DNA of 64,000 nt from Naegleria gruberi (lineage: Eukaryota), in assembly GCA_000004985.1 (NCBI GenBank), contig GG738903.1; one strand, 5' to 3'. This document shows, piece after piece, positions 25,037 to 44,387 of this stretch. Positions within the stretch are counted from its first letter, which is position 1, and each line of letters begins with the position of its first letter. The notes under the pieces were generated by a model. It was not told the origin of the DNA, made no database searches, and saw only the letters and a program-made list of their open reading frames with translations. Made by a program: the position numbers and the translations under genes.

Positions 25037-26983
25037 ATGTCATCTGCTGAAGTATTTGATGGAGCTATTGGTATTGATTTGGGAACAACTTATTCATGTG
25101 TTGGTGTTTATATGGGAGATAATGTAGAAATCATTCCGAATGATCAAGGTAATAGAACAACACCTTCCTATGTTGCATTCACTGATGAAGAACGTTTAAT
25201 TGGTGATGCTGCCAAGAATCAAGTTGCAATGAATCCACACAATACAGTATTTGATGCTAAACGTTTAATTGGTAGAAAGTTTTCCGACTCAACAGTTCAA
25301 GATGATATGAAACATTGGCCATTCAAGGTCATTACAAAGAGTGATGAGAAACCATACATTCAAGTTGAATACAAAGGAGAATCACATGTTTTCACACCAG
25401 AACAAATCTCATCCATGGTCTTGACTAAAATGAAGGATATTTCAGAACAATATTTGGGTAAACAAGTCAAGAAGGCAGTCATTACAGTTCCTGCCTATTT
25501 CAACGATTCACAAAGACAAGCAACCAAGGATGCTGGTGCAATTGCTGGTTTGGAAGTTTTGAGAATTATCAATGAACCAACAGCTGCTGCCATTGCTTAT
25601 GGTTTGAATAAGAAGGGTGAGAGAAATGTTTTGATTTTCGATTTGGGTGGTGGTACTTTTGATGTTTCAATTTTGAATATTGAGGATGGTGTTTTTGAAG
25701 TGAAAGCCACTGCTGGTGATACCCACTTGGGAGGAGAAGATTTTGATAACTTGATGGTTCAATTCTGCTGTCAAGAATTTAAGAGAAAGTACAAGAAGGA
25801 TATTCAAGAAAATCCAAGAGCATTAAGAAGATTGAGAACTGCTTGTGAAAGAGCCAAGAGAAATTTATCATCAGCTGCTAACGCTTCAATTAATGTTGAT
25901 TCAATTATGGACGGAATTGATTTGGATATTTCAATGACTCGTGCTAAATTTGAACAATTGAATATGGACTTGTTTAAGAAGTGTTTCGAACCAGTCAAGA
26001 AGGTTTTACAAGATTCAGGATTGGACAAGGCACAAATTGATGATGTTGTTTTGGTTGGTGGTTCAACACGTATTCCAAAAGTTCAAGAAATGCTCAGAGA
26101 ATTCTTCAACGGTAAAGAATTGTGCAGATCAATTAATCCAGATGAAGCTGTAGCTTATGGTGCTGCAGTTCAAGGTGGTGTTTTAACTGGTAAGGAAACC
26201 AAAGTCTTACTGATCGATGTTACTCCACTTTCATTGGGTATTGAAACAGCTGGTGGTGTCATGACCAAATTGATTGAAAGAAATTCAACCATTCCATGTA
26301 AGAAATCTGAAATCTTCTCAACCTATGCTGATAATCAAACAGCAGTCACTATTCAAGTCTTTGAAGGAGAAAGAACCTTGACAAAGGATAATCACTTGTT
26401 GGGAAGATTTAACTTGGAAGGTATTCCACCAGCACCAAGAGGTGTTCCAAAGATTGAAGTCACATTTGAAATTGATTCTAATGGTATTATGAAAGTTTCT
26501 GCCAAGGATACTTCATCTGGTAAGACACAAAACATTACCATCAAGAATGAACAAGGACGTTTGAGTAAGGAAGAAATTGAAGAAATGGTCAAGAAGGCCA
26601 AGGAAATGGAACAATTTGATAAGGAATTGAAAGAAAAGATTGATGCCAAGAATCAATTAGAGGCCTACGCCTATCAAATGAAATCCACTGCTGATGATCC
26701 AAACTTGTCTGGTAAATTATCAGATGCTGATAAGAATACCATCAAGAAGACATGTGAGGAAGTTATTAATTGGTTAGATAATAATTCTACCTATTCAAAG
26801 GATGATATTGAAAAGAAAAGAAAAGAATTGGAAGGTAAATGTGCACCAATTGTTAGCAAGCTGTATCAACAAGGAGCTGGTCAACCAGAATTCACACCAA
26901 ATGGAGCAAACTTTACCTCATCAGGTAATACTTCCAGTGGTTCTGAATCAAAGCCAAAGTTTGAAGATGTTGATGTTGATTAA
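25037..26983 (+). CDS. HSP70: Cytosolic Hsp70 (Ssa/HSPA-type), 648 aa, intronless
   Basis: [22 protein letters not shown] and [14 protein letters not shown] signatures; Gly/Ser-rich C-terminal tail ending EDVDVD. Confidence 0.95.
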
Positions 26984-27665: not shown

Positions 27666-30600
27666 TTATTTGAGTGAATCCATTAGATTTTTAGTTTCAG
27701 TTCTAGATTTCAACAATTGACCATTAGTAAGTCCCTTTGCAAGTAAGCCCATAAGATTATTTGGTTTCTTCTTAGTTTCTTCTTCCTTCTTAGCAAGATT
27801 CATTAATCCAGCAAAGAAATTGTTTGCATTCTTCTTTCTTTCTTCTTGCTGTTTTCCAAGCACTGACAAGAGTTTGTTTTCCTCATCACCAGTTGGAGTT
27901 TTGGCAGATGTTGGAGTGAGTGATGACAAGAGCGAGGTCTTTGATTTCAAACTTGACAGATCAAATGATGGGGATTGAGGAGTGGCATTGATAGATGGTT
28001 TAGTAAGCAAAGAAGTTGCAGTAGTTGATGAAGCTGCCTTCTTTCTTTGCATTAATAATTCCTTCTTCTTATCAAATCCAAGTTGTTTCTCATTCTTCTT
28101 TTTGGTTTCTTCTTGAAGTTTCTTTTGTTTTTCCTTTTCTTCCTTTTCTCTCTTGGCTTTCAAATCTTCACAGGCCTTATTCAAACTCTCGACAAAGTTG
28201 TGAATTTGAGTAAAGAATGTATCAGGTTTGTCAAGTAAATCTTGTGGCTTTTCGTCGAAGAGAGCTGCAATGAGTTTGAGATTTTCCTCAACAGTTGTTC
28301 TTGATTTTTCAATAATTTCCAATTGGTTTTGAGCTGTGCCGATGGTTTCTTCCATAACTTCGAGGAATCTATCTTTAGGATGGATATTCTTTTCCTTCTT
28401 CATCTTTTCAAAGAAGTTCTTGGTCTTTTTGGTATCTTCTTGGAGTTTCTTGATATCTTGGTCAATTGGAGCAAGTTGCAAACGAGTACATGTTTGTACA
28501 GATGACAAATCATTTGAAACTGTCAACAATTCAGGGAAATTATCTTGACACACTTGAGCCAAGTATTGAAGCATACTCTGCTTTGGATCTCTAGCTTTCA
28601 TAGTTTGCATCTTTTCGAGAGAACTAATCTTGAAACCATAAATGTTTTGCAACTTTTTGTTTGGAGCATGTTGATTGATATAGTTACCAATTGTCAAAAT
28701 GAGAGCCAAAATATCATGCAATTTGGTGGATGCTTGCAATTCCTTACAACCATTGAGCATTGAATCAAGTTTTGGTCTAATGGCAGAAATTCTGGAACCC
28801 AATTTGAGTTTAAAGTCCCACGATTGAACTCTTGTCAATGGAGATGGAATATCCAATAAGAAGGTGAAGAATGTTTCAGCCATTGGAATAACCTTCTTTG
28901 GTGCATCTGGATCCTCAGAAACTTCCTCTTCCTTGGTATCATCAAGATATTTCTGAATAACTGGAATTTCCTCATCGAGTGGCATGCAACCACTCAAAAC
29001 TTCAATGTTATTATCATCGACTGTCTTTTCGTCCATTTCAATGATGGCATTTCTGTAACGAGCACATTTCATTTGATCAGTTTCTGAATTATCCAACTTT
29101 TTAAGAGCAGAGAATTGAATGGAAATGTTATTCGAACGTTTACCATCAATTAAAATGATTTCTTCGACCTTTTTCTTTGCTGGTTGATCGGTGGCAATTG
29201 CCTTTTCCTCAACTTTTTCAAAAGCTTCCTCAATAGTTCCCAAATCAATCTTCTTAATCCATTCATTTGTCTTTTCAGCAATTCCATTCTTGATAAAGAT
29301 TGTTTGTTGAATGTTGGTTTGTGGAATTGTGTCAAAGAAGAAAACCTTGGTCTTTCTTCTTGGTTTAGCATTTGGTAATGTTGGAAGAACTGGTTTCTTG
29401 ACACCAGGAAGCATTCCCATTCCAGGTGGAGGAGGCATTCCAGGTAAACCACCCATTCCAGGTGGAGGTGGCATTCCCATACCTGGAGGCATTGGAACAC
29501 CTGAACCTGGAGGCATTGGAATTCCAGGTAAACCACCAGGTGGAGGAGGAACACCCATTCCTGGTGGCATTGGAATACCTGAACCAGGTGGAGGAGGAAT
29601 TCCCATACCAGGAGGCATTGGAATGCCTGAACCAGGAGGTGGTGGAACGCCCATTCCTGGTGGCATTGGAATACCAGATCCAGGTGGAGGAGGAACACCA
29701 GATCCACTTGGCAAACCACCAGGTGGAGGAGGAACAAATCCAGTTGAACCAGGTGGAGGAGGAACACCACCAGTAGCACCTGTCTCACTTGGTAATTTCA
29801 AATTATTGACCTTCATGAATTCTTCCAATTGCATAGCTCTCTGGTTGATGACACGAATTTCCTTGATTTGAACTTCAAGTTTTTCCTTTTCAGCTTCAGC
29901 TTCCTTCAACTTATCGGTCAAGGTCAAATTTTCTTCCTTAGATTTGGTCAATTCAAGTTTGAGAGTTTCTTCTTTGGAAAGATTAGTCACAGCATTCATG
30001 AATGATGAAAGAGTTTGTTTACGTTTCTTTGAACGTTCCTCAGCATCTCTCTTCTCGAGCTCTTGCTTTTGTTGGAAGAGCTCCTTCTTCATGTTCATAA
30101 TTTCATTTTCCAAGTCCAAAATTGTACGTTGTTGAGTCTTGACCAAACCATCGAGTTCAATTTCCTTTTCTGTTGTGAATTTGACCTTATCTTCTTTGAT
30201 GGCTACTTTCAAAAGGTTTTCAACAGTTGCCCATGATTTGTTAATTTCTTCAATTTCTATACCTTTAGACTTGCTGATAATTCCAAATTTGGTCAATTTC
30301 AACATGGAATTCAAAATATTTACAAAGCTGTTGTGAGCAGAGCTTGAAGAGCTAGCTTCATCATCCTTATTCAAGGTAATCAAGTAATTTGAAATTGATC
30401 TGGCAATATCAATAGGGCTACTAAGATCAATTTCATCCAAATCCTTGATGGAGGAAGATTCCTCATCGTGTTCTTCAGCAAATGAATTGAAAACACTTTC
30501 GAATGCCTTGATTTGTAAGAAAATATTCGAGAGTGGAGATTCCTCATCGTCCTTATCAATATTTTGCTCCTCAGCCAATACCTCATACTTCAAGTAAATG

Positions 30601-32138
30601 TACTTTACAGCCATGTGAAGTCCCAAATTCTTCCATTCACGCATCAATGAGATTCTAACACCTTCATTTGGAGAAACAGAGATCAATGAATTGAAAAAGA
30701 TCATGGTTGTCAAGACATAGGAAGCAATTGCTCCATTAAACATGTCATCAACTTCCAAATTTTCACCAGCCAAAAAGTTTAAACTATCAATCAAGAAATG
30801 GAAACGTTTTGGTTCTCTCTTGATCAATTTAAAGCTTGTCAATGCGTCAAGAATCAATTCGAAACCATCCATATTCTCAACATTCAAATTCATAATCACA
30901 GAAAGCAAAAGCAAAATTTGTGATCTCAATTCCAATGAATTGGAATCCAAAGTAAGAACCAAAGTTCTCAAAATATCCTTGTTCTTAAAGAAACAACCTC
31001 TAGCATAATCGGAAGTATTCAAAATTGTTTCAATACACTTTAAACAGTAAACTTCCTTTGTTTCCTTCTCTTCATCTGCAGAAGTTGACAATGCAGTCGA
31101 TGCCAAACAATCTGCCAATGAAGTGAGACCTCCCTCATTCAAGAAACCTCTCAACCACACTGAGTACTTGACCTCTTCAGAAGTTGTTGAAATTTCCAGT
31201 AAACTTTGATCTTCTTCAGCTGAAAGAGTTGAACAAATTGTCAACACTTCAGAAATTGTCTTTAACTGCAACAAATCAAAATTTCTCTCTGTAAACTTTT
31301 TGATAATCAAAGAGGGACTTGCATTGATAGCTTTCAATGTCAATTGTTCTTGTTTGTTCAAGTGATTTTCTTTGATTAAATTGTCTTCCTCTTCTTCTTT
31401 ACTAATTTGCTTTGGAGGAGTGGCATCTTTCTTTCCGAACATACCACCCATCAATTTTTGAATTCCTGACATTCTCTTTGAACTAACAGAAACTCTAGGT
31501 GAAAGCATATCAAGAAAATTATTCGAATCCAACGTTGGAGAAGTAACTTTTGGAGTTGTCTTCTCCTCATGAACCTCCTCACCAAACACCATATCACCAG
31601 TAAATGCACTAAAATTACCAGATCTTCTCTTATTAGCAGCAAAATTCAATGAAGATGGAGTAATTGACTCAACATTGAGTGTATCAAAACATGAAGATGA
31701 TGATGACAATGATTTGGAATTGGGTGGTGTTGATTGATTGGTTGTTGGAGGAGAGGTTTTCCTTCCAGAACCATTACCATTAGCAGAACCAGAACCAGCA
31801 AACATTTGTGCAAAGATGTTTGATGATGAGTTATTGTTGGAATTTGGAGATTTTGATGTTGTTGGATGTTGATGGGTTGTATTGGAGGAGGAGGAAGAAT
31901 GGAGGGGAATGAAATCTTGATTCCTTTTTGGAGATTCGTCTTCATTTGCTGGTGGAGAAGCTAATTTTACTTGGAAAGCTTCCTCTTCTTGTTTTTGATT
32001 GTTTGTTCTTGGAGTGATGATGGTTTCGGTGGTGATTTTGCCTAGGGAGCTGGATTGTCTTGTGATGATTGGTGGAATTTTACCAGTCTCATTGTTTAGT
32101 CCAGTTTCGTGTGGTGTTTCGGATGACATTTTACACAA
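27666..32138 (-). CDS. Formin paralog 2 (GBD/FH3-like region, FH1 with highly repetitive poly-proline, FH2), 1490 aa
   Basis: About 10 tandem GIPMPPGMGVPPPPGS(G) units; FH2-like region RKTKVFFFDTIPQTNIQQTIF...GNYIN; N-terminal region collinear with formin 1 (ISEVL..C, GGLT, EDKV.FTTE.EIE). Confidence 0.85.
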   Translation of the reverse strand: MCKMSSETPHETGLNNETGKIPPIITRQSSSLGKITTETIITPRTNNQKQEEEAFQVKLASPPANEDESPKRNQDFIPLHSSSSSNTTHQHPTTSKSPNSNNNSSSNIFAQMFAGSGSANGNGSGRKTSPPTTNQSTPPNSKSLSSSSSCFDTLNVESITPSSLNFAANKRRSGNFSAFTGDMVFGEEVHEEKTTPKVTSPTLDSNNFLDMLSPRVSVSSKRMSGIQKLMGGMFGKKDATPPKQISKEEEEDNLIKENHLNKQEQLTLKAINASPSLIIKKFTERNFDLLQLKTISEVLTICSTLSAEEDQSLLEISTTSEEVKYSVWLRGFLNEGGLTSLADCLASTALSTSADEEKETKEVYCLKCIETILNTSDYARGCFFKNKDILRTLVLTLDSNSLELRSQILLLLSVIMNLNVENMDGFELILDALTSFKLIKREPKRFHFLIDSLNFLAGENLEVDDMFNGAIASYVLTTMIFFNSLISVSPNEGVRISLMREWKNLGLHMAVKYIYLKYEVLAEEQNIDKDDEESPLSNIFLQIKAFESVFNSFAEEHDEESSSIKDLDEIDLSSPIDIARSISNYLITLNKDDEASSSSSAHNSFVNILNSMLKLTKFGIISKSKGIEIEEINKSWATVENLLKVAIKEDKVKFTTEKEIELDGLVKTQQRTILDLENEIMNMKKELFQQKQELEKRDAEERSKKRKQTLSSFMNAVTNLSKEETLKLELTKSKEENLTLTDKLKEAEAEKEKLEVQIKEIRVINQRAMQLEEFMKVNNLKLPSETGATGGVPPPPGSTGFVPPPPGGLPSGSGVPPPPGSGIPMPPGMGVPPPPGSGIPMPPGMGIPPPPGSGIPMPPGMGVPPPPGGLPGIPMPPGSGVPMPPGMGMPPPPGMGGLPGMPPPPGMGMLPGVKKPVLPTLPNAKPRRKTKVFFFDTIPQTNIQQTIFIKNGIAEKTNEWIKKIDLGTIEEAFEKVEEKAIATDQPAKKKVEEIILIDGKRSNNISIQFSALKKLDNSETDQMKCARYRNAIIEMDEKTVDDNNIEVLSGCMPLDEEIPVIQKYLDDTKEEEVSEDPDAPKKVIPMAETFFTFLLDIPSPLTRVQSWDFKLKLGSRISAIRPKLDSMLNGCKELQASTKLHDILALILTIGNYINQHAPNKKLQNIYGFKISSLEKMQTMKARDPKQSMLQYLAQVCQDNFPELLTVSNDLSSVQTCTRLQLAPIDQDIKKLQEDTKKTKNFFEKMKKEKNIHPKDRFLEVMEETIGTAQNQLEIIEKSRTTVEENLKLIAALFDEKPQDLLDKPDTFFTQIHNFVESLNKACEDLKAKREKEEKEKQKKLQEETKKKNEKQLGFDKKKELLMQRKKAASSTTATSLLTKPSINATPQSPSFDLSSLKSKTSLLSSLTPTSAKTPTGDEENKLLSVLGKQQEERKKNANNFFAGLMNLAKKEEETKKKPNNLMGLLAKGLTNGQLLKSRTETKNLMDSLK
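29380..29790. repeat. Intragenic tandem repeat (27/48-nt periodicity) encoding the FH1 poly-proline tract of formin 2
   Basis: Repeated ggaggaggcattccaggtaaaccacc / cctggtggcattggaatacctgaaccaggtggaggagg units read directly; the artefactual ORFs on both strands here are typical of such repeats. Confidence 0.7.
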
Positions 32139-32902: not shown

Positions 32903-34963
32903 ATGGCTAAATGTCACATTTGTTTATTCACACTAATGTTAGTGCTTTTAATTTCATGTTCTACAGAGGCTGGAATTTCGTCTGGACTTTTGTCAAAGGT
33001 GAAGGATGGTGATTGTGTGGTTGGGGTGAGAACGTTTCTGATAATGTTTGTGTGGAAACATAAATTTTCAAACGAAACTTTGACGAAATTGATTACTGCT
33101 AAAGATAACGATTCCAGAAGAAAGTATTTGGTCGAATCGTTGCAGGAGAGAGGTTTAACTATTGGTACCATACGCGATTATACACCTTTTCTTTCGAGTT
33201 ATTTCAAATATTCTAATCTTTCACTTTCTCATGGCCTTTCGAATAGCATACTATCATCTAGCTATTTTTCTATTTACCCACAAGTTGACATGTGTCAAAG
33301 AAGAGATTATTTTACGAGATATGATGCCATTTTGTTAGATCCCTATAACTTTGCTTATTACGTCAGGTTTTACAGAGATGTTGGGATGACATCTGGCATC
33401 TACATGAACAGTGATGACTTTGTGGCTGTACCACTCATTCCCTTCGAAGTCTACACTCAAACTACAAGAAATCAAGTTTCCTCCTTATTTGATTTGAATG
33501 TTGCAAGCTGTGATGCAAAACCTGACATTTCTGATGCGCAGTTTTTGAGAAGGTTGACAGGTTATGCTAATTTCTCACAACAAGATGTTGAAATAATTGG
33601 TAATGTTACTGGGAAATCACAAGTTTATGGAAATTGGACACTTGTGAATAACTTTCTAAATATGGAAATGGCAGAACTTACCATAAATGAAACATGGCAA
33701 CAATTACTACCTTCCACATGCTATATGTGTTCAACTGATGGTTGTTATGGTGAAAATTTCTGGCCGGTTCTTGATCTTTTCATCATTCCACAGTTACTAA
33801 TTATAGTAATTTACTTTTTATTACTTTTTGGGTTGAAAATTTACAAAAAACCTTCAATGAAACGAAGAATTGGAATTCCCTATACCCCAATTCATATCCT
33901 GGCTATCGTGATTACCTTTACTGGGCTCTCTAGAACTTGTGTTGGCTTTTGGTATAGTGCATGTTTGTTTAGTTTCTTTTGGTGGATATTGATCTATGTC
34001 AGTACAATTATTCGATTCTACTATTTGCGTAATTTGTATGCTCTCATAGTGATGTTTCCAAATAGAGAAAAGATGTTGAAAATGTTAGCTTCTCAGAAAG
34101 TTGGAATACTCATGACAGTTATGTTGACTTTTGTCATTTCACAAATATTGAATCTAGTCAGTGTTTACTTTTTTGTGAATGAAGATAAGGTTGGGGCTGA
34201 TTTTTATAGACCCATTATTGGTATCATTCTTTTATTATCATTGTGGGTCTTTGGTGGTTGTTGCTTTTTATTAGATTTGTTTCTCCAGAGAAAAACTATT
34301 CGAAAGGGTGGCATTCGAAAGTTTTTCTTCTTTGATGATCCATTCTACTTGAGAATAGACTTGATTTCTTCCATATTACCTGTCATTATTGCAATAATTA
34401 CTGGAATTGAGGTTTCCTCAAATGAAGGTATTGAAGCTCTTTCAATTTTCACAGGAATTTTCAATACCTTACTTTGTTTTAGTTTAGTTCAGATTAGTGG
34501 AGGAAATGTGCTAATGATTGAGATTTACAAAATGGTAAAAAGACGAAAGGAATCTTCACAATTGACCTGGGATCAAGAATTAACAAATTCAGATTTACTC
34601 CAAATTTTAAAGGAATATTCCGAAAAGGAGTTTAGTTCAGAGAATTACGAATTTTATATCAAGTTGAAATCACTTCAGAATAGAAAATTTATCAAGTTGA
34701 AGGAATTGCAAGAAATAGAAGCTGAATTTATTCGAAACTATTCAAAATACGAAGTGAATATTCCATCTTCATGCAAAAAGACTTTTTATGAACTTTTAAA
34801 CAAATGCCAAGAAGAATCCCAATTAGAATTTCAATTAATTTGGGATTGTGTTGCTCCAGAATTATTACTCAACCTTCAAGATACCTTCAATCGATTACAA
34901 GATACCTCAATATATGCCAAATGGCTTTCAGTTCAATCTTTGAAAGAAAACAATAATGTTTAG
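32903..34963 (+). CDS. 7TM receptor with C-terminal RGS domain (GPCR-RGS hybrid, AtRGS1 / fungal GprK-like), 686 aa, with signal peptide and an approx 260-aa ectodomain
   Basis: Signal peptide MAKCHICLFTLMLVLLISCS; seven hydrophobic helices between aa about 290 and 540; RGS signature LLQILKEYSEKEFSSENYEFYIKLKSL...EIEAEFIRNYSKYEVNI. Confidence 0.7.
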   Translation: MAKCHICLFTLMLVLLISCSTEAGISSGLLSKVKDGDCVVGVRTFLIMFVWKHKFSNETLTKLITAKDNDSRRKYLVESLQERGLTIGTIRDYTPFLSSYFKYSNLSLSHGLSNSILSSSYFSIYPQVDMCQRRDYFTRYDAILLDPYNFAYYVRFYRDVGMTSGIYMNSDDFVAVPLIPFEVYTQTTRNQVSSLFDLNVASCDAKPDISDAQFLRRLTGYANFSQQDVEIIGNVTGKSQVYGNWTLVNNFLNMEMAELTINETWQQLLPSTCYMCSTDGCYGENFWPVLDLFIIPQLLIIVIYFLLLFGLKIYKKPSMKRRIGIPYTPIHILAIVITFTGLSRTCVGFWYSACLFSFFWWILIYVSTIIRFYYLRNLYALIVMFPNREKMLKMLASQKVGILMTVMLTFVISQILNLVSVYFFVNEDKVGADFYRPIIGIILLLSLWVFGGCCFLLDLFLQRKTIRKGGIRKFFFFDDPFYLRIDLISSILPVIIAIITGIEVSSNEGIEALSIFTGIFNTLLCFSLVQISGGNVLMIEIYKMVKRRKESSQLTWDQELTNSDLLQILKEYSEKEFSSENYEFYIKLKSLQNRKFIKLKELQEIEAEFIRNYSKYEVNIPSSCKKTFYELLNKCQEESQLEFQLIWDCVAPELLLNLQDTFNRLQDTSIYAKWLSVQSLKENNNV

Positions 34964-35200: not shown

Positions 35201-36484
35201 TTAACTCCTTAATGCCAATGTATAATAGTATGGTACCAAGAAATTGTACAATACAAATAATGGATCTGTGGTTGGTATCTTTTTCAAAACTCTCATCGAG
35301 TACCAAAATCTCTTTTCATCAGTTCCAATTTGATGTCTCTCCACAATGGCTAACTTCTCTCCTGGATAAATGTTACCATGCTTTGGACTCTTGTAGACAT
35401 ATTGGATGTACTTGTGTGCATCAGAGTTGGTTGTTCTGGCCGCATAGATGTATCTGTCAATAACGAGTGCCAACACACTAGTTTCATTGGCAGAAAAGAT
35501 TGCAAAATCAGAATTACTAGGGTCACTCGATGTTGAAATTGCAGTGTCCAATTGTTTGATAGATCCCAACTCTGCATCTCCACATCCAAATATTGTGAAT
35601 TTTTCAGATTTTTCAAAAGCTAAATAAGGTGTTTGACTTCCAACTTCCATGACATAATCTAATTGAAATTAAATAGTATTTAACCAGAAATAATATTATT
35701 ATTAAATAATTAATAATACTACATATTACATACGGTGCTTTGTTGATCCATGAACATTATACAATCTGTATTTGAATAATTCAGGACTATTCAATTCACA
35801 ATACTGATCGTATTTAGGATAGGAATCACAAATTCCATTCTTTGCAAATGAAAAATAATTCAAATAGGTAACAGAGCTTGTTTCAACTCTTGTGTAGGTG
35901 TAATCTCCAGGATTACCAACAACCAGTGAAGAATTCCAAACCACATCATTATTAGCCTCATTCATATAATTTTCAATAGCACTATCCGTAAATGGTTGAC
36001 AATTATAATTTGTTGGTTTAGGAACGACGGCTTTTGTCAGAATGACTTCTGTTACTATAAAGTAGAGAGAAAAACCAATTAAAAGTGCTGCAATAATCAA
36101 TCCAAGACTAATATAAACTGCTCTATTCATATACTTGTTCCAATCAATGGTCGGTTTTTGTGGTTGTTCAAATTCTTCCAAGTCTTTTGCGTTGGCAACA
36201 TCCTTAATATTATTATGGGTGTTTATCCTTGTTGGTACCTCCTCCAATTCCTCTTCCGATGAATTTCTATCCAGTGAAGATAATGGTGCCGACGACTGAT
36301 GAATAGTAGGTTCCTCATCATCATGTTGTCCATACTTGGATACTTTTTTTAATGCTGATTTTTTAGGTGAATGTAGAGTAACAACATTTCCGTGATTGTA
36401 TGAATGACCCACCGAGTAATGATGATGATGGTCGTGATTGGGCGAGTTTGCTGGTGAGTGATTGAATGATTCTTCGTTATTCAT
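35201..36484 (-). CDS. Hypothetical single-pass (type II) membrane protein, 2 exons join(complement(35201..35658),complement(35734..36484)); His-rich cytosolic N-terminus
   Basis: Exon 1 ends ...GSTKH|c with a GTATGT donor; 75-nt intron; CAATTAG acceptor restores the frame into ...HYVMEVGSQTPY; TM segment AVYISLGLIIAALLIGFSLYFIV. Confidence 0.5.
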
Positions 36485-37958: not shown

Positions 37959-38798
37959 TTAAAAATAAAATAATTTTTCAAACCTACCAATACAGGAAGG
38001 ACAATTAGTAACCTTCCACGACTGCAAAGCTTCCGAATCACTAATCACCACATGAACCTTATTATTCTTAATCAATTCAAATTGTTCATCAAAAGATGTA
38101 AAAATTTTCTTGGCAAGTGGCAGCGTTTGATTCGCCAATGTTTCATAATAAGTTCCAAAATATGCTGCAACGATAATATCAGGCGAATTCAACTGTGAAA
38201 TATCTTTCAAATTTGCAAAAGTTGCATTATTTTCCTTATTTAGTAACGTTCGTAAAAATCCATTTGCAGTAGATCCATATCCACAATCAGAAAACTGAAC
38301 CTTGGACCTTCTCTCTGTAGTATATGTCGAATCAGCAACTGAAACATCACATTCCTCAGTTTCCACTGCCTTCTTCATCGATTCAAAGAATCCATCAGTG
38401 GCATTTACATATACGAAACGAGTTGCTAGGGAAGTTCCATATTTTGAGTTGATTGCACTCACTAATTCCAATCCAACCCTTTTGTAAATATCTGCCCACA
38501 TTGTGTCAGAAGTTACACCATCATAGCAGAGCTTTAATTCTTTAACTGAGCTTGGAATGGGAAATTTGGTTGGCCAACTGGGATTACTGGTGCACGCAGG
38601 AACACTGAATGCAACAGTATTGGCAATATAATTAATAAACGATTTGGAGGAAGACACTTGTTTCATGGCTGCATTAATCATTTGGTTGAATTCGATGGAA
38701 ACTAGCTGGTTAGGGATTGTAGATGTTTGACAGTGAATTGCCTTCCAATAAAACATTAGAAAGAGGATAATGGGAAGAGCTCTCATTGATAACGACAT
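37959..38798 (-). CDS. Secreted periplasmic-binding-protein-like protein (solute-binding family 3 / ionotropic-glutamate-receptor ligand-binding-like), approx 279 aa
   Basis: Signal peptide MRALPIILFLMFYWKAIHC; CDVSVADSTYTTERRSKVQFSDCGY resembles the PBPb / Lig_chan motif (D.A.A.TIT.ER...DFS.PY). Confidence 0.5.
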   Translation of the reverse strand: MSLSMRALPIILFLMFYWKAIHCQTSTIPNQLVSIEFNQMINAAMKQVSSSKSFINYIANTVAFSVPACTSNPSWPTKFPIPSSVKELKLCYDGVTSDTMWADIYKRVGLELVSAINSKYGTSLATRFVYVNATDGFFESMKKAVETEECDVSVADSTYTTERRSKVQFSDCGYGSTANGFLRTLLNKENNATFANLKDISQLNSPDIIVAAYFGTYYETLANQTLPLAKKIFTSFDEQFELIKNNKVHVVISDSEALQSWKVTNCPSCIGRFEKLFYF

Positions 38799-38933
38799 TT
38801 TTTTCAATTTAGAGATAAGGAATCGATAGATTTTGTTGGATTATTATCTTTGACCGAAACTGATGCTCATTGGCAACACCGAGATTGATTGGGAAAAAAA
38901 CCATCAATAGCTTTCTAATTTATTGTAGAAAAT

Positions 38934-41900
38934 TTACAAGAAAATAAACATTGCTGCCACAAATACGACCAACAAATGAGATAGATATTGTCTACTTGGG
39001 TTTGAATGATTCAATCTTAATGATTGGCTAATGATTGGTGAGGTTTTGGATGGTTGGATTGGAGGTTTCTGTTGGGCTGCGCTAAAAACTTGAATAATAT
39101 CGAATGCATTGTGAATTGAAGTACCACTCTCATCCAGATTAAGCTCTCTGTTTGAAGAGGTGCTTTTCATGATCGATTCTGTATGAATAAAACAAGTGTT
39201 GACCTGTACACTTTCTGATGAACCTATTGGAAACATGTTTGATTGGATGGTAAATTTGAAACCTAATTGGAAATTAATTAATGGAAACTTGATCAATTCA
39301 GTTCCATATTGTGAAGAAACGACTTGGTTATCAATTAAGTGAAGCCAATTTGACATGGTTGTAGAATTATATCTTTGACAACCGTAGGAATTCTGAGATG
39401 GATCATAGGTTGGCATTGAAACTCCTGATTTTGTGCAACAGAGATAGGCATTCTTAATAGATAACGAGATTGATGAAGGAAGAGATGAGGATTTTCCATT
39501 AGAATCTACAATATTAACCAAAACGTGTGGAGAATCTGAAATTGTGAATAAATTTTTAGGTTGACCAAAGTTGTTGGAATATAGATTAACTTGAGTTGAG
39601 TATTTGAGTTCGGTTGGAGGAGGGTTGATTGGCATAGTGTAAGATAAAGAAATACTTAACAAAACTTGAACAATTTTCTCACCGGTTCTAACTTGAATTG
39701 AAAAGGTAAAAATTCCAGAAATGTACGAAACTTTCTGCTTTGAGCTAATAATGAGATTATAACTATTTGGTTGATATTCACTCAAGATAATATCAAAATC
39801 AATATTTTGATAAGGTTGGGAGCCCAAATAACTCACAGAGACCACAGTCACATTATTAGTAAATAATTTGCCTGATAGGGAGAACAATCCATCCTGAATA
39901 GTAATAATTTCTTTTCTGTAATTTACATTAACATTGTCTCCAAAAGTCATGTTTCCATTCACGTCCATACCAATCATTTGGTGAGAGGATAAAACAAGCT
40001 TAACTTGATGATTCACTCCATAATTCACAATTTCACAATAATCTCCATTTTGAGAATCGAATTTGTTGGTGATTAGTCCAATATTAATTGGAACGTTTAG
40101 GGTGAGAACAGTTCCTGAGGAATCTAGCTGTTTAACAATACGAGAATCATTCATCAAAGTGGAGATGCTGGTTGTGAGTGAGTATTGGGCTTGACATTCG
40201 AATAATTGTTCTGGTTGGAAGGATGGTTGATTCTTGGAACAGGAATCAATGCTGGAATGAGAAATTACAGTTTGGTTTGTGGTAGAGAGAAGGCTCTTTG
40301 GTATTTTGATAGAGTAGGTCAATTGGTAGCCTCCACCTGAACTAGAAACGCTCACTATTGGGGTCTCTGATAATTGAGAGCATGGATTTTCTTGAGTATC
40401 TTGAATATCACATCTAATACCAAAACTTCCTAATGGACATGTTTCACATGAAGTTGCATTAGTGCAAGTGTTACATGTAATTAAGCATGTCTCAGTACAG
40501 TTTCGTCCAAAATATCCGAATTGACAAACTAAACAAGTAGAATTGGAAATATCGCAACTAATGCATCTTTCAGGACATTCAACGGATGGTATTCCATTAT
40601 TATCATCCCCTGAATCAACTTGCAAACTATTCAATACAGGAATATCGTATGCAGTTGTAAATAAAGAACTAGCCGATTCGAATGTAAGTTTAAACTTTGA
40701 AGGAAGGATAGCACCTTGGATTGGAACCAATTCGAATGTCAATTGGCTATCAGTACACAAAGTGTTGATTCCACTGAAATAATTTCTCAAAACAATCACG
40801 TTATTGTTTTGATCGAAAGCTTTCAGATAGAGGAAGGCTTCTTGATCACTTTGTTGTAATGATTTTTGAAGGGATTCTCTCCAATAATGGTCCATTCCAT
40901 TGATTTTCACATTTATAATGGTAGTATTGATATTGGAAAGTCTTTCAAGGTTTGTTAGACCTTTGTCGAAACTTAGAGAAATGTCAGTATTTGGCAAATT
41001 CTCAACAGAAAATGAAATAGATTGAGAAGTAATTAAATGAGTATAACCAAACAGGAAATTACCATAATTCGTCTTAAATGAAATTGGCAATCTTTCAATA
41101 ACATTGCTCGATCCAATATAATCTGGAACTCTCGAACTAGCTGTCATGATTGATGAAGGATCTGAAAAAGAAGGTGGAATATTTTTAGTACTTGAGCTGA
41201 GATAAACTTTTCCAATTGGATAGGAGGCGAATTGTTGTTTGAGAACAATTCCAGATTTTCCAGAATTCTTTTCACGTGTCAAAATTTCAGAAAGGTCTTT
41301 GTAACCATAACCAAATGTGCTTGGATTCATAGAGATGGAAATTGGTTCATTATATTTGGGAACATGAACTAGGGAAAGTTCTAATTGGAATGTCTTGGTA
41401 GTTGTTGCAAGATTCTTGAGACGAATTTGGACGAAACGATCGAATACTACACAATTTCCCTTGATATTCGAAATTGAGTCAGTATCCAATACGAACATGT
41501 TATTATCTACTGTCTTGGTAAGAGTATTGTAGACATATCCATCACTTGTTACAATTCGAATGTCAAGCTCAAAATTATTGACAATCAAATTGCCAGTTGT
41601 AGAATCAATAACTCTCAAGTAAACTTTAGAATTGGTATTCAGAGCAACACTGTCATAGAAAGTTCTACAATCGAATGCAAAATAAGTTTGTTCTTGACTT
41701 GCTAAATTTTTGGCACTTGATGGAATTCCATTTACAAGTTTGTAATTTGGAAATACTGAAATAGTGACAGGTTTAGTAGTTGCAATACCAACTTCTGTTC
41801 CGTACTGATTATCCTTCAACATTGGGATATAGCTTCCTGTTTGAGTCAGAGTATAGGTCAATCCAACACCAGGTTTAGGTTTAGCATAGAAAGCTCTGTA

Positions 41901-44387
41901 AATTTCATAGTCAGTGTAAAGCTTGACGTTCAATTCATTGTTAACTGGACGAACGAATAGATAAGGATAGACAACGTCCTTATCACCGAACTTTAAACCA
42001 ATCAATCGATTCAAATTATCTTGAACAACTGAAGCGTCAGAAGGAGAAAATTCGAAATAAGGATCGAATCTAATAGAATTCAACTCTAATGGAAAGTCTG
42101 GGTCATTAGGAATGAGCTGAATTACTACGTAATGATCTGCAGATTCATAATTGTTTTGCATGGTAATTGGATAAAAGTAATTTCCAAGAATAGACCAATA
42201 AGGATACGTTTCTTCATACTTTCGTCCATCAGTTTGTACGAATCTTCCGTTCTGGAGCCATGCCTCATAGACATAGGCATCAAAACAGCCATATGAATCC
42301 ATTACTACACCAAATTTTGGAATCTTTCTATTGACTTTTTGGATAAATGTTACCATTGTAGAAGTGTCTCGAATAGCTTGTCTTGGATAACTTAAGGTTT
42401 CTGAACTTTCGATTGGTTGATAAGCAAAAACCTGTTCAAACTGGATAGTGAGGGAGTTGATAGGATTGATAATAAAATCTGTGTTGTTGAGGAATGCAGA
42501 ATAAACATATTTCGAATTGGAACTGTCGTAAAATTCTGAAAAACCTGTCAATGGAGTTTGGAGTTGGGGTACAATGCTGGATTTTGTTGAAAATGAAATG
42601 AATGAGAAAGTATTGAGAATATTTCTCAAATGTTTAAAGATTGTCCTTTTTGAAATCAAAACTGAATTCTTTGGAGTGCTACTAAACTCGATAGTATTTG
42701 TTGTAGAGCCAGTAATGACAGTTTCGTTAATGTAATTAACTGGAATAGGATTGTTGGCCGAAACTGTGGAATTACTAGCAGTTGCTGAGAAGAATGTTGT
42801 TTGGAGAGAGTAGGTACCACTAATACTTGGAATATGAGTGTAAGTAATTACTTCAAAAGACTTGGAAAAAGTGTCCTTAACGTCAATTGAAAGTCCAAGT
42901 TTGTAAAAAGCATCAAACTTTACAAAAAGAGAAGCCGATGATCTGGAGACTGTGCCTTCAGTATGAATTTGACCTTTGATTGTTGGAATGATGGCAACTT
43001 CAGCAGAAGGCAACCATGAAGTTAATTCGAATTTGAATTTAGGATAAACTGCGAGCTCAGCAGTGGCATTACCTTCCATGAAAATTCCAGGAGATTTGGA
43101 GCTCCAAACAAGACCATCACCTTCATTGATATCAGAAAAACCAGTACCTGACTCATACTTGTAACCAACATATTTAGAATAAGAGACCAAAAAGTTTCGT
43201 CTATATTCAATCTTTCCAGAGGCCTCAATATTCAGCTTATACTCGAGAGAAGGTGTAATATCAAGTGAAAAGAGATAAAACAAGGAAATCTTAATAGGCG
43301 CAGGTAACTTGTACAAGGTTCCCTCTTTTGTTTTCGAATAGCTTGCTTGGTAACTGAACAATAATGTTGCATTAGCTAGAGTTTGACCGCCTACGAGAAT
43401 TTTAGCAGAGCTAACTTTCCACCAACCCAATTCAATTTCTGCCTTGATTTCTAAATTAACAGTTGCAAAGCAATCAAGACAATCAATGGTGAAGGAAGTT
43501 GTTCCATTAACATATTTGTATAATCCAATAGAAGGATTTTTGACTTTTTGCTCAGCAATGTCATAATTGAAACCAGTATTGAATAGACGATAGGTTGTAG
43601 AGTATCTCTTGTTGGTTGGTTCACTAATTTGCAAAGTATTCGAATCTACCATGTTTCTAACAAGTGGAACTGAATAATAATCAACTTTCAAGTCATAGAA
43701 CAAATCTTTTGGCATAATTTTCTTAACATGAAACTTGACTCTCACCATGTTATCCTCACCATATCTAATTTCTCTAGCCAAAACCAAAAAAGCTTGGATA
43801 TTTTCATTACCATATTTGGTGTCTGTGTCTTGACCATAGCATTGCCATTGTTTACCAATAACAAGTCTAGAACCAGGAATTAATCTCTTTGAAGTGGAAT
43901 GACCATTAGCAAAATCAATGTCTAGTTGATTGTCAGAACATTTGACATCCCAGACGTTTACGTCATGGTCAAGCATGGACACACCAGAAATTACTTTTCC
44001 ATACAATGAGTAGATGTGATGAGAGCCATGGATGATAGCTTGTCCGCTTTGTGACACTGTCATGTAGTCTTCTTCCTTTAGAATTTCATGTGGGTTTCTT
44101 CTTCTTTTTAAAGATTCTTCTGAATGTTTATATTCGAAAAGTGAAAATCCATACGAATCTGTTTGTGAAGCATGTACGAATTCGTTGTTGTTCTTGAAAG
44201 GATGAATAGTTGGTGAAGTAAATCCAATATCCAATGCCTTTCCAATGAAAATACTTTCGTCTAGCAAATTTCTGGACCGAATCTTCTTGCCAAACATTCT
44301 TTGGGTGGGAAATGAAGGTTGTTGAGCACTAAATACCACGCAACCACTCAACAACAATAAAACTAATAACCATGTGCTAACTTTCAT
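38934..44387 (-). CDS. Very large type I surface protein (1817 aa): signal peptide, huge novel ectodomain, furin/laminin-EGF-like Cys-rich cluster, C-terminal TM anchor
   Basis: MKVSTWLLVLLLLSGCVVFSAQQ; CPERCISCDISNSTCLVCQFGYFGRNCTETCLITCNTCTNATSCETCPLGSFGIRCD; C-terminal LSHLLVVFVAAMFIFL. Confidence 0.7.
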   Translation of the reverse strand: MKVSTWLLVLLLLSGCVVFSAQQPSFPTQRMFGKKIRSRNLLDESIFIGKALDIGFTSPTIHPFKNNNEFVHASQTDSYGFSLFEYKHSEESLKRRRNPHEILKEEDYMTVSQSGQAIIHGSHHIYSLYGKVISGVSMLDHDVNVWDVKCSDNQLDIDFANGHSTSKRLIPGSRLVIGKQWQCYGQDTDTKYGNENIQAFLVLAREIRYGEDNMVRVKFHVKKIMPKDLFYDLKVDYYSVPLVRNMVDSNTLQISEPTNKRYSTTYRLFNTGFNYDIAEQKVKNPSIGLYKYVNGTTSFTIDCLDCFATVNLEIKAEIELGWWKVSSAKILVGGQTLANATLLFSYQASYSKTKEGTLYKLPAPIKISLFYLFSLDITPSLEYKLNIEASGKIEYRRNFLVSYSKYVGYKYESGTGFSDINEGDGLVWSSKSPGIFMEGNATAELAVYPKFKFELTSWLPSAEVAIIPTIKGQIHTEGTVSRSSASLFVKFDAFYKLGLSIDVKDTFSKSFEVITYTHIPSISGTYSLQTTFFSATASNSTVSANNPIPVNYINETVITGSTTNTIEFSSTPKNSVLISKRTIFKHLRNILNTFSFISFSTKSSIVPQLQTPLTGFSEFYDSSNSKYVYSAFLNNTDFIINPINSLTIQFEQVFAYQPIESSETLSYPRQAIRDTSTMVTFIQKVNRKIPKFGVVMDSYGCFDAYVYEAWLQNGRFVQTDGRKYEETYPYWSILGNYFYPITMQNNYESADHYVVIQLIPNDPDFPLELNSIRFDPYFEFSPSDASVVQDNLNRLIGLKFGDKDVVYPYLFVRPVNNELNVKLYTDYEIYRAFYAKPKPGVGLTYTLTQTGSYIPMLKDNQYGTEVGIATTKPVTISVFPNYKLVNGIPSSAKNLASQEQTYFAFDCRTFYDSVALNTNSKVYLRVIDSTTGNLIVNNFELDIRIVTSDGYVYNTLTKTVDNNMFVLDTDSISNIKGNCVVFDRFVQIRLKNLATTTKTFQLELSLVHVPKYNEPISISMNPSTFGYGYKDLSEILTREKNSGKSGIVLKQQFASYPIGKVYLSSSTKNIPPSFSDPSSIMTASSRVPDYIGSSNVIERLPISFKTNYGNFLFGYTHLITSQSISFSVENLPNTDISLSFDKGLTNLERLSNINTTIINVKINGMDHYWRESLQKSLQQSDQEAFLYLKAFDQNNNVIVLRNYFSGINTLCTDSQLTFELVPIQGAILPSKFKLTFESASSLFTTAYDIPVLNSLQVDSGDDNNGIPSVECPERCISCDISNSTCLVCQFGYFGRNCTETCLITCNTCTNATSCETCPLGSFGIRCDIQDTQENPCSQLSETPIVSVSSSGGGYQLTYSIKIPKSLLSTTNQTVISHSSIDSCSKNQPSFQPEQLFECQAQYSLTTSISTLMNDSRIVKQLDSSGTVLTLNVPINIGLITNKFDSQNGDYCEIVNYGVNHQVKLVLSSHQMIGMDVNGNMTFGDNVNVNYRKEIITIQDGLFSLSGKLFTNNVTVVSVSYLGSQPYQNIDFDIILSEYQPNSYNLIISSKQKVSYISGIFTFSIQVRTGEKIVQVLLSISLSYTMPINPPPTELKYSTQVNLYSNNFGQPKNLFTISDSPHVLVNIVDSNGKSSSLPSSISLSIKNAYLCCTKSGVSMPTYDPSQNSYGCQRYNSTTMSNWLHLIDNQVVSSQYGTELIKFPLINFQLGFKFTIQSNMFPIGSSESVQVNTCFIHTESIMKSTSSNRELNLDESGTSIHNAFDIIQVFSAAQQKPPIQPSKTSPIISQSLRLNHSNPSRQYLSHLLVVFVAAMFIFL

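What the first reader, a model, noticed from the sequence alone, without database searches (positions are those of the whole stretch)
32903..34963. Seven-transmembrane receptor with an intramolecular RGS domain and a large ectodomain
The product has a signal peptide, an approx 260-aa extracellular domain, seven TM helices and a C-terminal RGS box (FSSENYEFYIKLKSL...EFIRNYSKYEVNI). 7TM-RGS proteins (AtRGS1 in plants, GprK-type in some fungi) couple ligand sensing directly to G-alpha GTPase acceleration. The large N-terminal domain, not obviously related to known ligand-binding modules, is unusual.
Basis: partly seen in the sequence, partly recalled or inferred. Interest (0 to 1): 0.55.

Follow-up and report, generated by a model that had tools for sequence, protein, structure and literature searches.

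The report
Naegleria seven-helix receptor fused to RGS
This is a real Naegleria gruberi gene for a cell-surface seven-helix receptor whose tail is an RGS domain, which switches G proteins off; it belongs to a large family of such proteins already described in Naegleria, so it is ordinary apart from its poorly understood outer domain.

Summary
Window 32903..34963 (+) is one 686-codon ORF, identical to N. gruberi NEG-M protein NAEGRDRAFT_81447 (UniProt D2VW55, "Uncharacterized protein"). It encodes a signal peptide, a ~265-aa glycosylatable, Cys-containing ectodomain, seven TM helices and a C-terminal RGS box.

- **Topology:** K+R counts are 21 on the cytoplasmic side and 2 in the outer loops.
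- **Model:** an AlphaFold2 model built on a 105-sequence family alignment has pLDDT 90.
- **Pfam:** the RGS hit is only marginal (24.1 bits against a 23.9 cutoff).

N. fowleri has 28 7TM-RGS proteins whose RGS boxes are proven GAPs (Bosch et al. 2022), and N. gruberi has 229 RGS proteins.

The ectodomain is not a one-off. It recurs in at least 55 clusters, and every member sampled is heterolobosean. It may be a degenerate periplasmic-binding-protein type II (NMT1/THI5-like) module, but that evidence is only transitive. Interest is low to moderate.

The parts
32903..34963 (+). Complete single-exon CDS (686 aa plus stop) = NAEGRDRAFT_81447 / UniProt D2VW55
   Evidence: ORF list. Exact-sequence look-up. 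92% identical over the full length to paralogue NAEGRDRAFT_73295.
32903..32968 (+). Signal peptide, aa 1-22 (MAKCHICLFTLMLVLLISCSTEA|G)
   Evidence: Hydropathy peak 2.08 at the N-terminus. Helix 5-18 with low pLDDT in the model. The cleavage site is inferred from the -3/-1 rule; no SignalP was run.
32969..33763 (+). Ectodomain, aa 23-287: an alpha/beta core (aa ~25-186), then a helical part and a Cys-rich stalk
   Evidence: 7 N-glycosylation sequons. pLDDT mostly 80-96. Conserved C131 (65/67), D172, P180, C203. Alignable in at least 55 family clusters. No direct Pfam, NCBIfam or PDB sequence hit. hhalign to NMT1-like paralogue ectodomains: probability 88%, E 2.9e-6, over aa 84-237.
33713..33760 (+). 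Juxtamembrane Cys-rich stalk, aa 271-286 (STCYMCSTDGCYGENF; C273, C276, C281)
   Evidence: Family consensus is LPSTCxxCxxxxC. C273 is present in 60/84 sequences, C276 in 61/84 and C281 in 51/71. Disulfide bonding is inferred.
33764..34543 (+). Seven-transmembrane domain, aa 288-547 (TM1 288-310, TM2 323-344, TM3 347-376, TM4 398-425, TM5 429-461, TM6 483-503, TM7 510-541/547)
34013..34039 (+). Cytoplasmic end of TM3: motif RFYYLRNLY (aa 371-379) with near-invariant R371
   Evidence: R371 is present in 98/99 family sequences and Y379 in 93/103. R371 is invariant in the 62-sequence alignment. Its role as a DRY-like or ionic-lock arginine is inferred.
34322..34363 (+). Cytoplasmic start of TM6: motif FFFFDDPFYLRIDL (aa 474-487) with near-invariant D479, P480 and R484
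   Evidence: D479 98/99, P480 97/99, R484 96/98. This is the hallmark motif of the family.
34544..34579 (+). Short TM7-to-RGS linker, aa 548-559
   Evidence: In the model the TM7 helix runs to about aa 547 and the RGS helices start at 556-563. The post-TM7 stretch is basic (K+R = 5 over aa 542-562).
34580..34951 (+). RGS box, aa 560-683; the protein ends 3 residues later, with no C-terminal tail

Best explanation
The gene encodes a plasma-membrane receptor-GAP of the 7TM-RGS class.

Shown by computation here:
- A signal peptide directs the N-terminus outside.
- A ~265-aa glycosylated, disulfide-stabilised ectodomain sits on a GPCR-fold seven-helix bundle.
- A canonical RGS box hangs about 12-15 residues after TM7 on the cytoplasmic face.

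Inferred from the conserved G-alpha contact residues and from biochemistry on N. fowleri relatives:
- The RGS box binds the transition state of one or more of the many Naegleria G-alpha subunits and accelerates their GTP hydrolysis. This holds G-alpha, especially 'self-activating' fast-exchanging G-alpha, in the GDP state near the receptor.

Inferred only, by analogy with AtRGS1 and from the near-invariant TM3-end Arg (R371) and TM6-start D479-P480...R484 motifs:
- Binding of an extracellular cue to the ectodomain shifts the helix bundle and changes how well the tethered RGS box reaches G-alpha-GTP, or removes the receptor from the surface. The cue is thereby translated into a change in G-alpha-GTP level.

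The nature of the cue is unknown. The ectodomain may descend from a small-molecule-binding PBP-II (NMT1/THI5/SsuA-like) module.
For: **Gene reality and conservation**
- Intact 686-codon ORF, identical to a deposited N. gruberi protein.
- Its paralogue is 96% identical in the ectodomain, 88% in the 7TM and 96% in the RGS.

**Topology**
- Signal peptide, 7 sequons in the ectodomain, 7 hydrophobic helices, and K+R 21 inside against 2 outside.

**Folds**
- AF2 pLDDT 90.2, pTM 0.87.

**GAP competence**
- All RGS4 contact residues are retained and 90-99% conserved over about 90 family members: N619 87/88, E580 90/92, N581 88/91, R664 82/87.

**Family**
- The ectodomain+7TM profile finds 106 cluster representatives.
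- All 17 sampled clusters that carry an organism name are Naegleria, Willaertia or Acrasis. Most members carry the C-terminal FSxEN/RGS signature.

**Literature**
- N. fowleri has 28 7TM-RGS proteins. The RGS boxes of Nf 7TM RGS2-4 accelerate GTP hydrolysis on Nf G-alpha 2, 3, 5 and 7, and the switch-1 G-to-S 'RGS-insensitive' mutation abolishes this (PMC9283941).
Against: - The Pfam RGS score is only 0.2 bits above the gathering cutoff, and UniProt does not name this protein as an RGS protein.
- No experiment exists for this protein or, to my knowledge, for any N. gruberi 7TM-RGS.
- Bosch et al. state that it is undetermined whether Naegleria 7TM-RGS proteins are surface receptors and how cues alter GAP activity.
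- The protein lacks the C-terminal phospho-acceptor tail through which AtRGS1 endocytosis is triggered; it ends 3 residues after the RGS box.
- No ligand-binding fold could be assigned to the ectodomain directly.
- Plasma-membrane rather than endomembrane location is assumed, not shown.
Confidence: 0.7

Rival explanations
1. Dual-function receptor. The 7TM bundle is a genuine GPCR that activates (as a GEF) slow-exchanging G-alpha on ligand binding. The fused RGS box then provides built-in rapid shut-off or kinetic sharpening, rather than tonic repression of self-activating G-alpha.
For: - The 7TM has a true GPCR fold.
- It has a near-invariant Arg at the cytoplasmic end of TM3 and an acidic/Pro motif at the start of TM6, the positions GPCRs use for G-protein coupling.
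- Naegleria has both slow- and fast-exchanging G-alpha, and both types interact with 7TM-RGS boxes (PMC9283941).
- De Mendoza et al. note that 7TM-RGS proteins and canonical GPCRs coexist in several lineages.
Against: - No 7TM-RGS protein has been shown to have GEF activity.
- No sequence similarity to any Pfam GPCR family.
- A 12-15 residue tether places the RGS box where a coupled G-alpha would sit, which may sterically compete with GEF-type coupling (inference).
Confidence: 0.15
2. Constitutive membrane-anchored GAP or adhesion molecule. The ectodomain has a structural or adhesive role and does not bind a diffusible ligand. The protein simply localises RGS activity to a membrane domain.
For: - No recognisable ligand-binding fold by direct search.
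- De Mendoza et al. report RGS fused to at least one TM domain in most eukaryotic lineages.
- Other Nf 7TM-RGS proteins have adhesion-type ectodomains (GPS, EGF, lectin).
Against: - A simple anchor would not need a conserved seven-helix GPCR fold with near-invariant cytoplasmic TM3/TM6 motifs.
- It would also not need a conserved 265-aa ectodomain kept at 96% identity between recent paralogues.
- No GPS, EGF or lectin domain is detected here.
Confidence: 0.1
3. The RGS box is a non-catalytic G-alpha-binding (effector or scaffold) module, as in GRK2 or mammalian RhoGEF RH domains.
For: The Pfam score is marginal. Some RGS domains have lost GAP activity (de Mendoza et al.).
Against: - The catalytically important Asn (RGS4 N128 -> N619) and the SxEN and DxxR contact residues are all present and almost invariant in the family.
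- The fold superposes at 1.7-1.8 Å on R4-type GAP-active RGS boxes, not RH domains.
- Even the Naegleria RGS-RhoGEF uses a canonical interface with GAP activity.
Confidence: 0.04
4. Annotation artefact or pseudogene: a chance ORF, or a decaying duplicate of NAEGRDRAFT_73295.
For: A 92%-identical paralogue lies on the same scaffold. No expression data were examined.
Against: - The 686-codon frame is uninterrupted.
- Differences from the paralogue are mostly in TM helices, while the ectodomain and RGS stay 96% identical.
- All family-invariant residues are intact.
Confidence: 0.01

Closest known systems
Naegleria fowleri 7TM RGS proteins (Nf 7TM RGS1-4 and 24 others; Bosch, Jeck & Siderovski 2022, PMC9283941)
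   Same: Same genus and same architecture (N-terminal ectodomain, 7TM, C-terminal RGS). N. fowleri RGS-domain proteins fall in the same 7TM sequence family found here: P0006, P0034, P0093 and P0123. The canonical RGS/G-alpha interface residues are shared.
   Different: The four studied proteins have EGF-like, lectin and GPS-motif ectodomains. This protein has none of these by Pfam and instead carries the family's ~265-aa alpha/beta plus Cys-stalk module. I could not map Nf 7TM RGS1-4 accessions onto my hits. No biochemistry exists for this protein.
Arabidopsis AtRGS1 (plant 7TM-RGS)
   Same: It has 7TM plus a cytoplasmic C-terminal RGS box acting as a GAP on a self-activating G-alpha. It is the functional model for receptor-GAP signalling (PMC3386157, PMC9283941).
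   Different: From established knowledge, not tested here: AtRGS1 has essentially no ectodomain, a longer TM7-RGS linker, and a C-terminal Ser-rich tail whose phosphorylation drives endocytosis. The window protein has a 265-aa ectodomain, a ~12-residue linker and no tail. Among the 106 hits of the ectodomain+7TM profile search of 1.84 billion proteins, the 20 clusters whose sources I looked up include no plant protein; 17 carry heterolobosean names, and AtRGS1 itself was not compared.
Class C GPCRs (mGlu, GABA-B, TAS1R, GPR156/158)
Trichomonas vaginalis and fungal (GprK-type) 7TM-RGS proteins
   Same: The same domain order and the same presumed receptor-GAP logic (PMC3865004; PMC3971589).
   Different: No detectable sequence relationship of the 7TM or ectodomain at HMMER sensitivity. 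These are probably independent fusions (inference).
Bacterial PBP type II solute-binding proteins of the NMT1/THI5/SsuA family (Pfam PF09084)
   Same: Three paralogues' ectodomains match PF09084 in the same region: P0086 24.4 bits, P0054 22.3 bits, P0083 17.9 bits (cutoff 20.5). Four carry the KNITxxxDLxxKxIAV signature. The window-type ectodomain aligns to these with hhalign probability 88%, E 2.9e-6. The order of strands and helices at aa 86-186 fits a PBP-II lobe (my reading).
   Different: - The window ectodomain and family consensus give no direct hit to Pfam, NCBIfam or PDB.
- hhalign to an (undiverse) E. coli SsuA profile gives nothing.
- The N-terminal lobe appears reduced.

Membership tests
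7TM-RGS architectural class | Seven transmembrane helices | tested here: met
7TM-RGS architectural class | RGS box C-terminal to TM7 and on the cytoplasmic side | tested here: met
   RGS at aa 560-683, after TM7. The signal peptide, ectodomain sequons and an odd helix count, together with K+R 21 inside against 2 outside, place it in the cytoplasm. This is a prediction, not an experiment.
7TM-RGS architectural class | GAP activity on a cognate G-alpha | not testable with these tools
   Only indirect evidence: contact residues are conserved, and GAP activity has been shown for N. fowleri 7TM RGS2-4 boxes.
RGS domain (Pfam PF00615) | Score at or above Pfam's gathering threshold | tested here: met
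   24.1 bits against a 23.9 cutoff, E 4.9e-5, covering 85 of 117 profile positions. This is marginal. 34 of 62 family members match Pfam RGS at E <= 0.001.
RGS domain (Pfam PF00615) | All-helical RGS-box fold | tested here: met
RGS domain (Pfam PF00615) | G-alpha switch-contact residues (RGS4 S85, E87, N88, N128, D163, S164, R167) | tested here: met
Family conservation is 90-99%.
Heterolobosean 'DDPFY' 7TM-RGS family (defined here) | RFxYLRNLY after TM3 and FFDDPFxxRxDL before TM6, with a C-terminal FSxEN...EVN...DTxxR RGS | tested here: met
   All motifs are present. The profile search finds 106 representatives. All 17 sampled clusters that carry an organism name are Naegleria, Willaertia or Acrasis.
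Class C GPCR | 7tm_3 transmembrane domain by sequence | tested here: not met
   No Pfam 7TM family matches the window's 7TM or the family consensus, even at E <= 10.
Class C GPCR | 7TM structurally closest to class C | tested here: inconclusive
Class C GPCR | Venus-flytrap (PBP type I, ANF_receptor) ectodomain plus a 9-Cys CRD | tested here: not met
   No ANF_receptor or NCD3G hit. The stalk has only 3 conserved Cys.
AtRGS1 orthologue group | Sequence-level homology of the 7TM to plant RGS1, minimal ectodomain, C-terminal phospho-tail | tested here: not met
   The protein has a 265-aa ectodomain and no tail after the RGS. Among the 106 hits of the ectodomain+7TM profile search, none of the 20 clusters I looked up is a plant protein. 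AtRGS1 itself was not aligned.
Adhesion-type Nf 7TM RGS (GPS/EGF/lectin ectodomains) | GPS motif, EGF repeats or lectin domain in the ectodomain | tested here: not met
   No such Pfam hit at E <= 5. The juxtamembrane CxxCxxxxC lacks the HL-T/S cleavage motif (sequence).
PBP type II / NMT1-THI5-like solute-binding domain | Direct profile match of the window ectodomain | tested here: not met
   No Pfam, NCBIfam or PDB hit for the sequence, the 23-sequence profile or the consensus. hhalign to an SsuA profile gives probability 0% (that profile had >=79% identical members, so its power is low).
PBP type II / NMT1-THI5-like solute-binding domain | Transitive homology through paralogues that match NMT1 | tested here: inconclusive
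   - P0086 scores 24.4 bits over NMT1 positions 66-213; P0054 22.3 bits; P0083 17.9 bits.
- Window-type subfamily against these: probability 88%, E 2.9e-6, 138 columns.
- The 99.4% value is circular, because the two alignments share members.
PBP type II / NMT1-THI5-like solute-binding domain | Two-lobed alpha/beta fold with hinge strands, by structure comparison | not tested
Whole-chain fold-search lists are filled by GPCR and RGS hits. afdb50 was unavailable.

The most novel reading that the evidence does not exclude
The family-specific ectodomain may be a degenerate periplasmic-binding-protein type II (NMT1/THI5/SsuA-like) solute sensor. If so, heteroloboseans independently assembled a 'class-C-like' receptor (clamshell, Cys stalk, GPCR-fold 7TM) and wired it to a GAP (RGS) output instead of a GEF output, then expanded it to dozens of paralogues. 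That would give 7TM-RGS receptors, whose ligands are unknown in almost every lineage, a predictable small-molecule binding pocket that can be screened.
Probability: 0.35. Interest if true: 0.55.

Novelty: new member of a known kind. Interest (0 to 1): 0.27.

Why it matters
7TM-RGS 'receptor-GAPs' are the proposed ancestral way of controlling self-activating G-alpha in plants and many protists. Outside Arabidopsis, however, almost nothing is known about what they sense.

This gene adds little by itself. It is already in GenBank, and its family is documented in Naegleria.

The analysis does show three things:
- UniProt leaves this protein unnamed, apparently because the RGS score sits at the threshold.
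- It belongs to a family of more than 100 clusters, in which every member sampled is heterolobosean. The family has a confidently modelled GPCR-fold bundle and near-invariant TM3/TM6 cytoplasmic motifs.
- The large ectodomain is a shared module that may derive from a bacterial-type solute-binding protein.

If the last point holds, it offers a concrete route to de-orphanising these receptors. That includes those of the pathogen N. fowleri, where G-protein pathways are discussed as drug targets.

Tried and rejected
- **First AF2 run.** With the 7-sequence alignment it gave pLDDT 45 and was useless outside the RGS box. It cost one of the two jobs, so no ectodomain-only model could be made.
- **Direct identification of the ectodomain failed.**
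  - phmmer and hmmsearch against PDB gave only chance-level hits: staphylopine dehydrogenase E 0.05 and a T2SS protein E 1.5.
  - Pfam on 23 ectodomains at E <= 5 gave nothing for the window sequence.
  - Pfam and NCBIfam on family consensus sequences gave nothing.
  - The NMT1-like subgroup profile against PDB gave nothing.
- **E. coli SsuA profile.** I fetched E. coli SsuA (a bona fide NMT1 member) and its homologues. The 120 returned were all >=79% identical, and hhalign to the window-type ectodomain gave nothing.
- **Circular comparison.** Protein comparison A6 vs A7 gave 99.4%, but I reject it as evidence because the two alignments share members.
- **The look-up of encoding contigs.** It returned no record for the window protein or its paralogue, so there was no DNA-level dN/dS and no synteny check.
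- **Second copy in the window.** I searched for a second family member or any other RGS box; none was found.
- **GPS, EGF and lectin.** I considered these adhesion-type ectodomains, as in Nf 7TM RGS1-4; they are not present.
- **Pfam 7TM assignment.** None for the window's 7TM or the family consensus.
Full report
**1. What is at the coordinates**

Window 32903..34963 (+) is a single ATG-initiated ORF of 686 codons plus stop. It lies in a ~34% GC eukaryotic region. At that composition, about 7% of random codons are stops, so an open frame this long is not a chance event (my estimate).

The translation is identical to GenBank EFC38959.1 / XP_002671703.1, NAEGRDRAFT_81447 of Naegleria gruberi (UniProt D2VW55, "Uncharacterized protein"). 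The window is therefore from the published N. gruberi genome, and the single-exon model agrees with the deposited one.

A 92%-identical paralogue, NAEGRDRAFT_73295 (D2VW88, named "RGS domain-containing protein"), lies on the same 304-kb scaffold. It is not inside this window. No other family member or RGS box is in the window.

Neighbouring genes are unrelated: two formins, Hsp70 and a BTB-ankyrin protein.

**2. Anatomy and topology**

Hydropathy gives an N-terminal signal-like segment (aa 1-22) and seven further hydrophobic segments between aa 288 and 541.

The 265-aa stretch between them holds 7 of the protein's 8 N-x-S/T sequons. It also holds family-conserved cysteines: C131 in 65/67 sequences, C203 in 53/69, and the juxtamembrane C273/C276/C281.

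The three predicted cytoplasmic loops plus the post-TM7 linker contain 21 K+R. The three outer loops contain 2. This fits N-out/C-in.

The first-stage refutation test was a helix count other than seven with the RGS outside. That is not met.

**3. Structure**

A first AlphaFold2 run with 7 sequences failed (pLDDT 45).

A HMMER profile of the ectodomain+7TM was then searched against 1.84 billion representatives. It returned 106 family members. With a 105-sequence alignment, the model reached pLDDT 90.2 and pTM 0.87.

**4. Is the RGS box likely to be active?**

The Pfam hit is marginal: 24.1 against 23.9 bits. This probably explains why UniProt leaves this protein unnamed while naming its paralogue.

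The residues by which RGS4 contacts the G-alpha switch regions all have counterparts. The RGS4 sequence was recalled from memory and verified by its canonical numbering.

| RGS4 residue | Window residue | Family conservation |
|---|---|---|
| S85 | S578 | 83/91 |
| E87 | E580 | 90/92 |
| N88 | N581 | 88/91 |
| N128 | N619 | 87/88 |
| D163 | D660 | 80/87 |
| S164 | T661 | 78/87 |
| R167 | R664 | 82/87 |

That pattern is what purifying selection on a working G-alpha interface would give.

**5. The family**

The 7TM carries two striking cytoplasmic motifs:
- RFYYLRNLY at the end of TM3, with R371 in 98/99 sequences.
- FFFFDDPFYLRIDL at the start of TM6, with D479 in 98/99, P480 in 97/99 and R484 in 96/98.

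Their positions correspond to where GPCRs carry the DRY arginine and its TM6 partner. A switch role is my inference, not a result.

I looked up twenty clusters, including the strongest and the weakest hits. All 17 that carry an organism name come from Naegleria gruberi, N. fowleri, N. lovaniensis, Willaertia magna or Acrasis kona. The other three are unnamed metagenome or EukProt entries. At HMMER sensitivity, no member from outside the Heterolobosea was seen.

34 of 62 members scanned match Pfam RGS at E <= 0.001. Most of the rest carry the FSxEN motif at the expected distance.

**6. The ectodomain**

It is not peculiar to this gene. At least 55 family clusters have an alignable ectodomain of similar length. 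It is modelled confidently, with pLDDT mostly 80-96.

Direct searches find nothing. These covered Pfam, NCBIfam and PDB, using the sequence, a profile and the consensus.

There is a transitive lead:
- Three paralogues match Pfam NMT1/THI5-like (a periplasmic-binding-protein type II family) at the equivalent place.
  - P0086 scores 24.4 bits over profile positions 66-213, and P0054 scores 22.3 bits; both are above the 20.5 cutoff.
  - P0083 scores 17.9 bits.
- Four paralogues carry the typical KNITxxxDLxxKxIAV signature.
- A profile of 16 window-type ectodomains, none of them those paralogues, aligns to them with hhalign probability 88%, E 2.9e-6, over window aa 84-237.
- The strand/helix order of aa 86-186 in the model fits one PBP-II lobe ending in a long crossing strand (my reading).

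Evidence against:
- No PBP appears in the (truncated) fold-search lists.
- The NMT1-like subgroup profile hits no PDB chain.
- A profile of E. coli SsuA homologues does not align to the window-type ectodomain. All of those homologues were >=79% identical, so the power of this test is low.

I rate the PBP-II origin at about 0.35-0.4.

**7. Mechanism**

*Shown computationally:* an N-out glycoprotein with a GPCR-fold bundle and an intact RGS box tethered about 12 residues after TM7.

*Inferred from family knowledge:* the RGS box acts as a GAP on Naegleria G-alpha.
- In N. fowleri, the RGS boxes of 7TM RGS2-4 accelerate GTP hydrolysis on G-alpha 2, 3, 5 and 7.
- They bind only the AlF4(-) state, and are blocked by the switch-1 G-to-S mutation.
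- G-alpha 5 and 7 are self-activating (PMC9283941).

*Inferred by analogy with AtRGS1:* an extracellular cue changes the availability of the RGS box and thereby G-alpha-GTP levels. The authors of the N. fowleri study state that this step is undetermined.

Unlike AtRGS1, the protein has no C-terminal tail after the RGS box. A phosphorylation-driven endocytosis switch would therefore have to use other sites.

Rivals, in order of my confidence:
- a GEF+GAP dual receptor
- a constitutive anchored GAP or adhesion molecule
- a non-catalytic RGS
- a pseudogene

**8. Comparison and novelty**

The architecture is a known kind:
- 7TM-RGS proteins are described in plants, Trichomonas, many 'bikonts', chytrids, filastereans and ichthyosporeans (PMC3971589).
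- Specifically, N. fowleri has a 28-member family (PMC9283941).
- N. gruberi has 229 RGS proteins.

The protein itself is deposited but uncharacterised. I therefore file it as a new (unannotated) member of a known kind.

It is not an AtRGS1 orthologue, not a class C GPCR by sequence, and not of the adhesion-type (GPS/EGF/lectin) Nf subgroup. Those membership features were tested and not met.

The parts that go beyond the literature I could read are:
- the definition of the family by its DDPFY-type 7TM motifs, found so far only in heteroloboseans
- the shared ectodomain and its possible PBP-II ancestry

A library search found no paper linking PBP domains to Naegleria 7TM-RGS proteins, but the library is incomplete.

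**9. Verdict**

Surprise value is low, because the class is established in this very genus. There is modest residual interest in the ectodomain.

Interest is 0.27. The most novel admissible reading is the PBP-II 'class-C-like' receptor-GAP, at probability ~0.35 and interest 0.55 if true.

Noticed in passing
window 32903-34963, compared with the paralogue on the same scaffold (outside the window): UniProt names the 92%-identical paralogue D2VW88 'RGS domain-containing protein' but leaves this protein (D2VW55) 'Uncharacterized'. The Pfam RGS score here is 24.1 bits against a 23.9 cutoff, so automatic annotation sits on a knife edge. 28 of 62 family members scanned do not match Pfam RGS at E <= 0.001, although most keep the contact motifs.
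   Followed up: partly
window 37959-38807 (-) and 38934-44387 (-): A 282-aa ORF has a sub-threshold match to bacterial solute-binding protein family 3 (SBP_bac_3, 25.1 against 26.4 bits). It lies 126 bp downstream of a 1817-aa ORF with no Pfam hit at E <= 1e-4. The two may be one gene split by an intron, or a separate PBP-like protein. The 7TM-RGS ectodomain profile does not match it.
   Followed up: partly
window 20108-23620 (-) and 27666-32138 (-): Two formin genes (FH2 domain, E ~1e-61 each) lie within 12 kb, separated by an Hsp70 gene (25037-26983, +) and a 261-aa ORF. The second formin has a Diaphanous GTPase-binding domain and a long poly-proline FH1 region.
   Followed up: no
family members P0002, P0003, P0005 (N. 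gruberi and Willaertia gene models): Several deposited paralogue models look truncated or internally deleted. P0002 (499 aa) and P0003 (561 aa) lack the signal peptide and the N-terminal part of the ectodomain. P0005 lacks TM4-TM5. These are probably gene-model errors rather than biology.
   Followed up: no
family members P0059, P0060, P0062, P0066, P0071 (1186-1371 aa): Some paralogues carry 700-830 aa ahead of the 7TM, roughly three times this protein's ectodomain. No Pfam domain was detected in the members scanned at E <= 0.001.
   Followed up: no
window 35726-36484 (-): The immediate downstream neighbour is a 252-aa ORF with a His-rich N-terminus and one hydrophobic segment. It has no Pfam hit and its function is unknown.
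   Followed up: no
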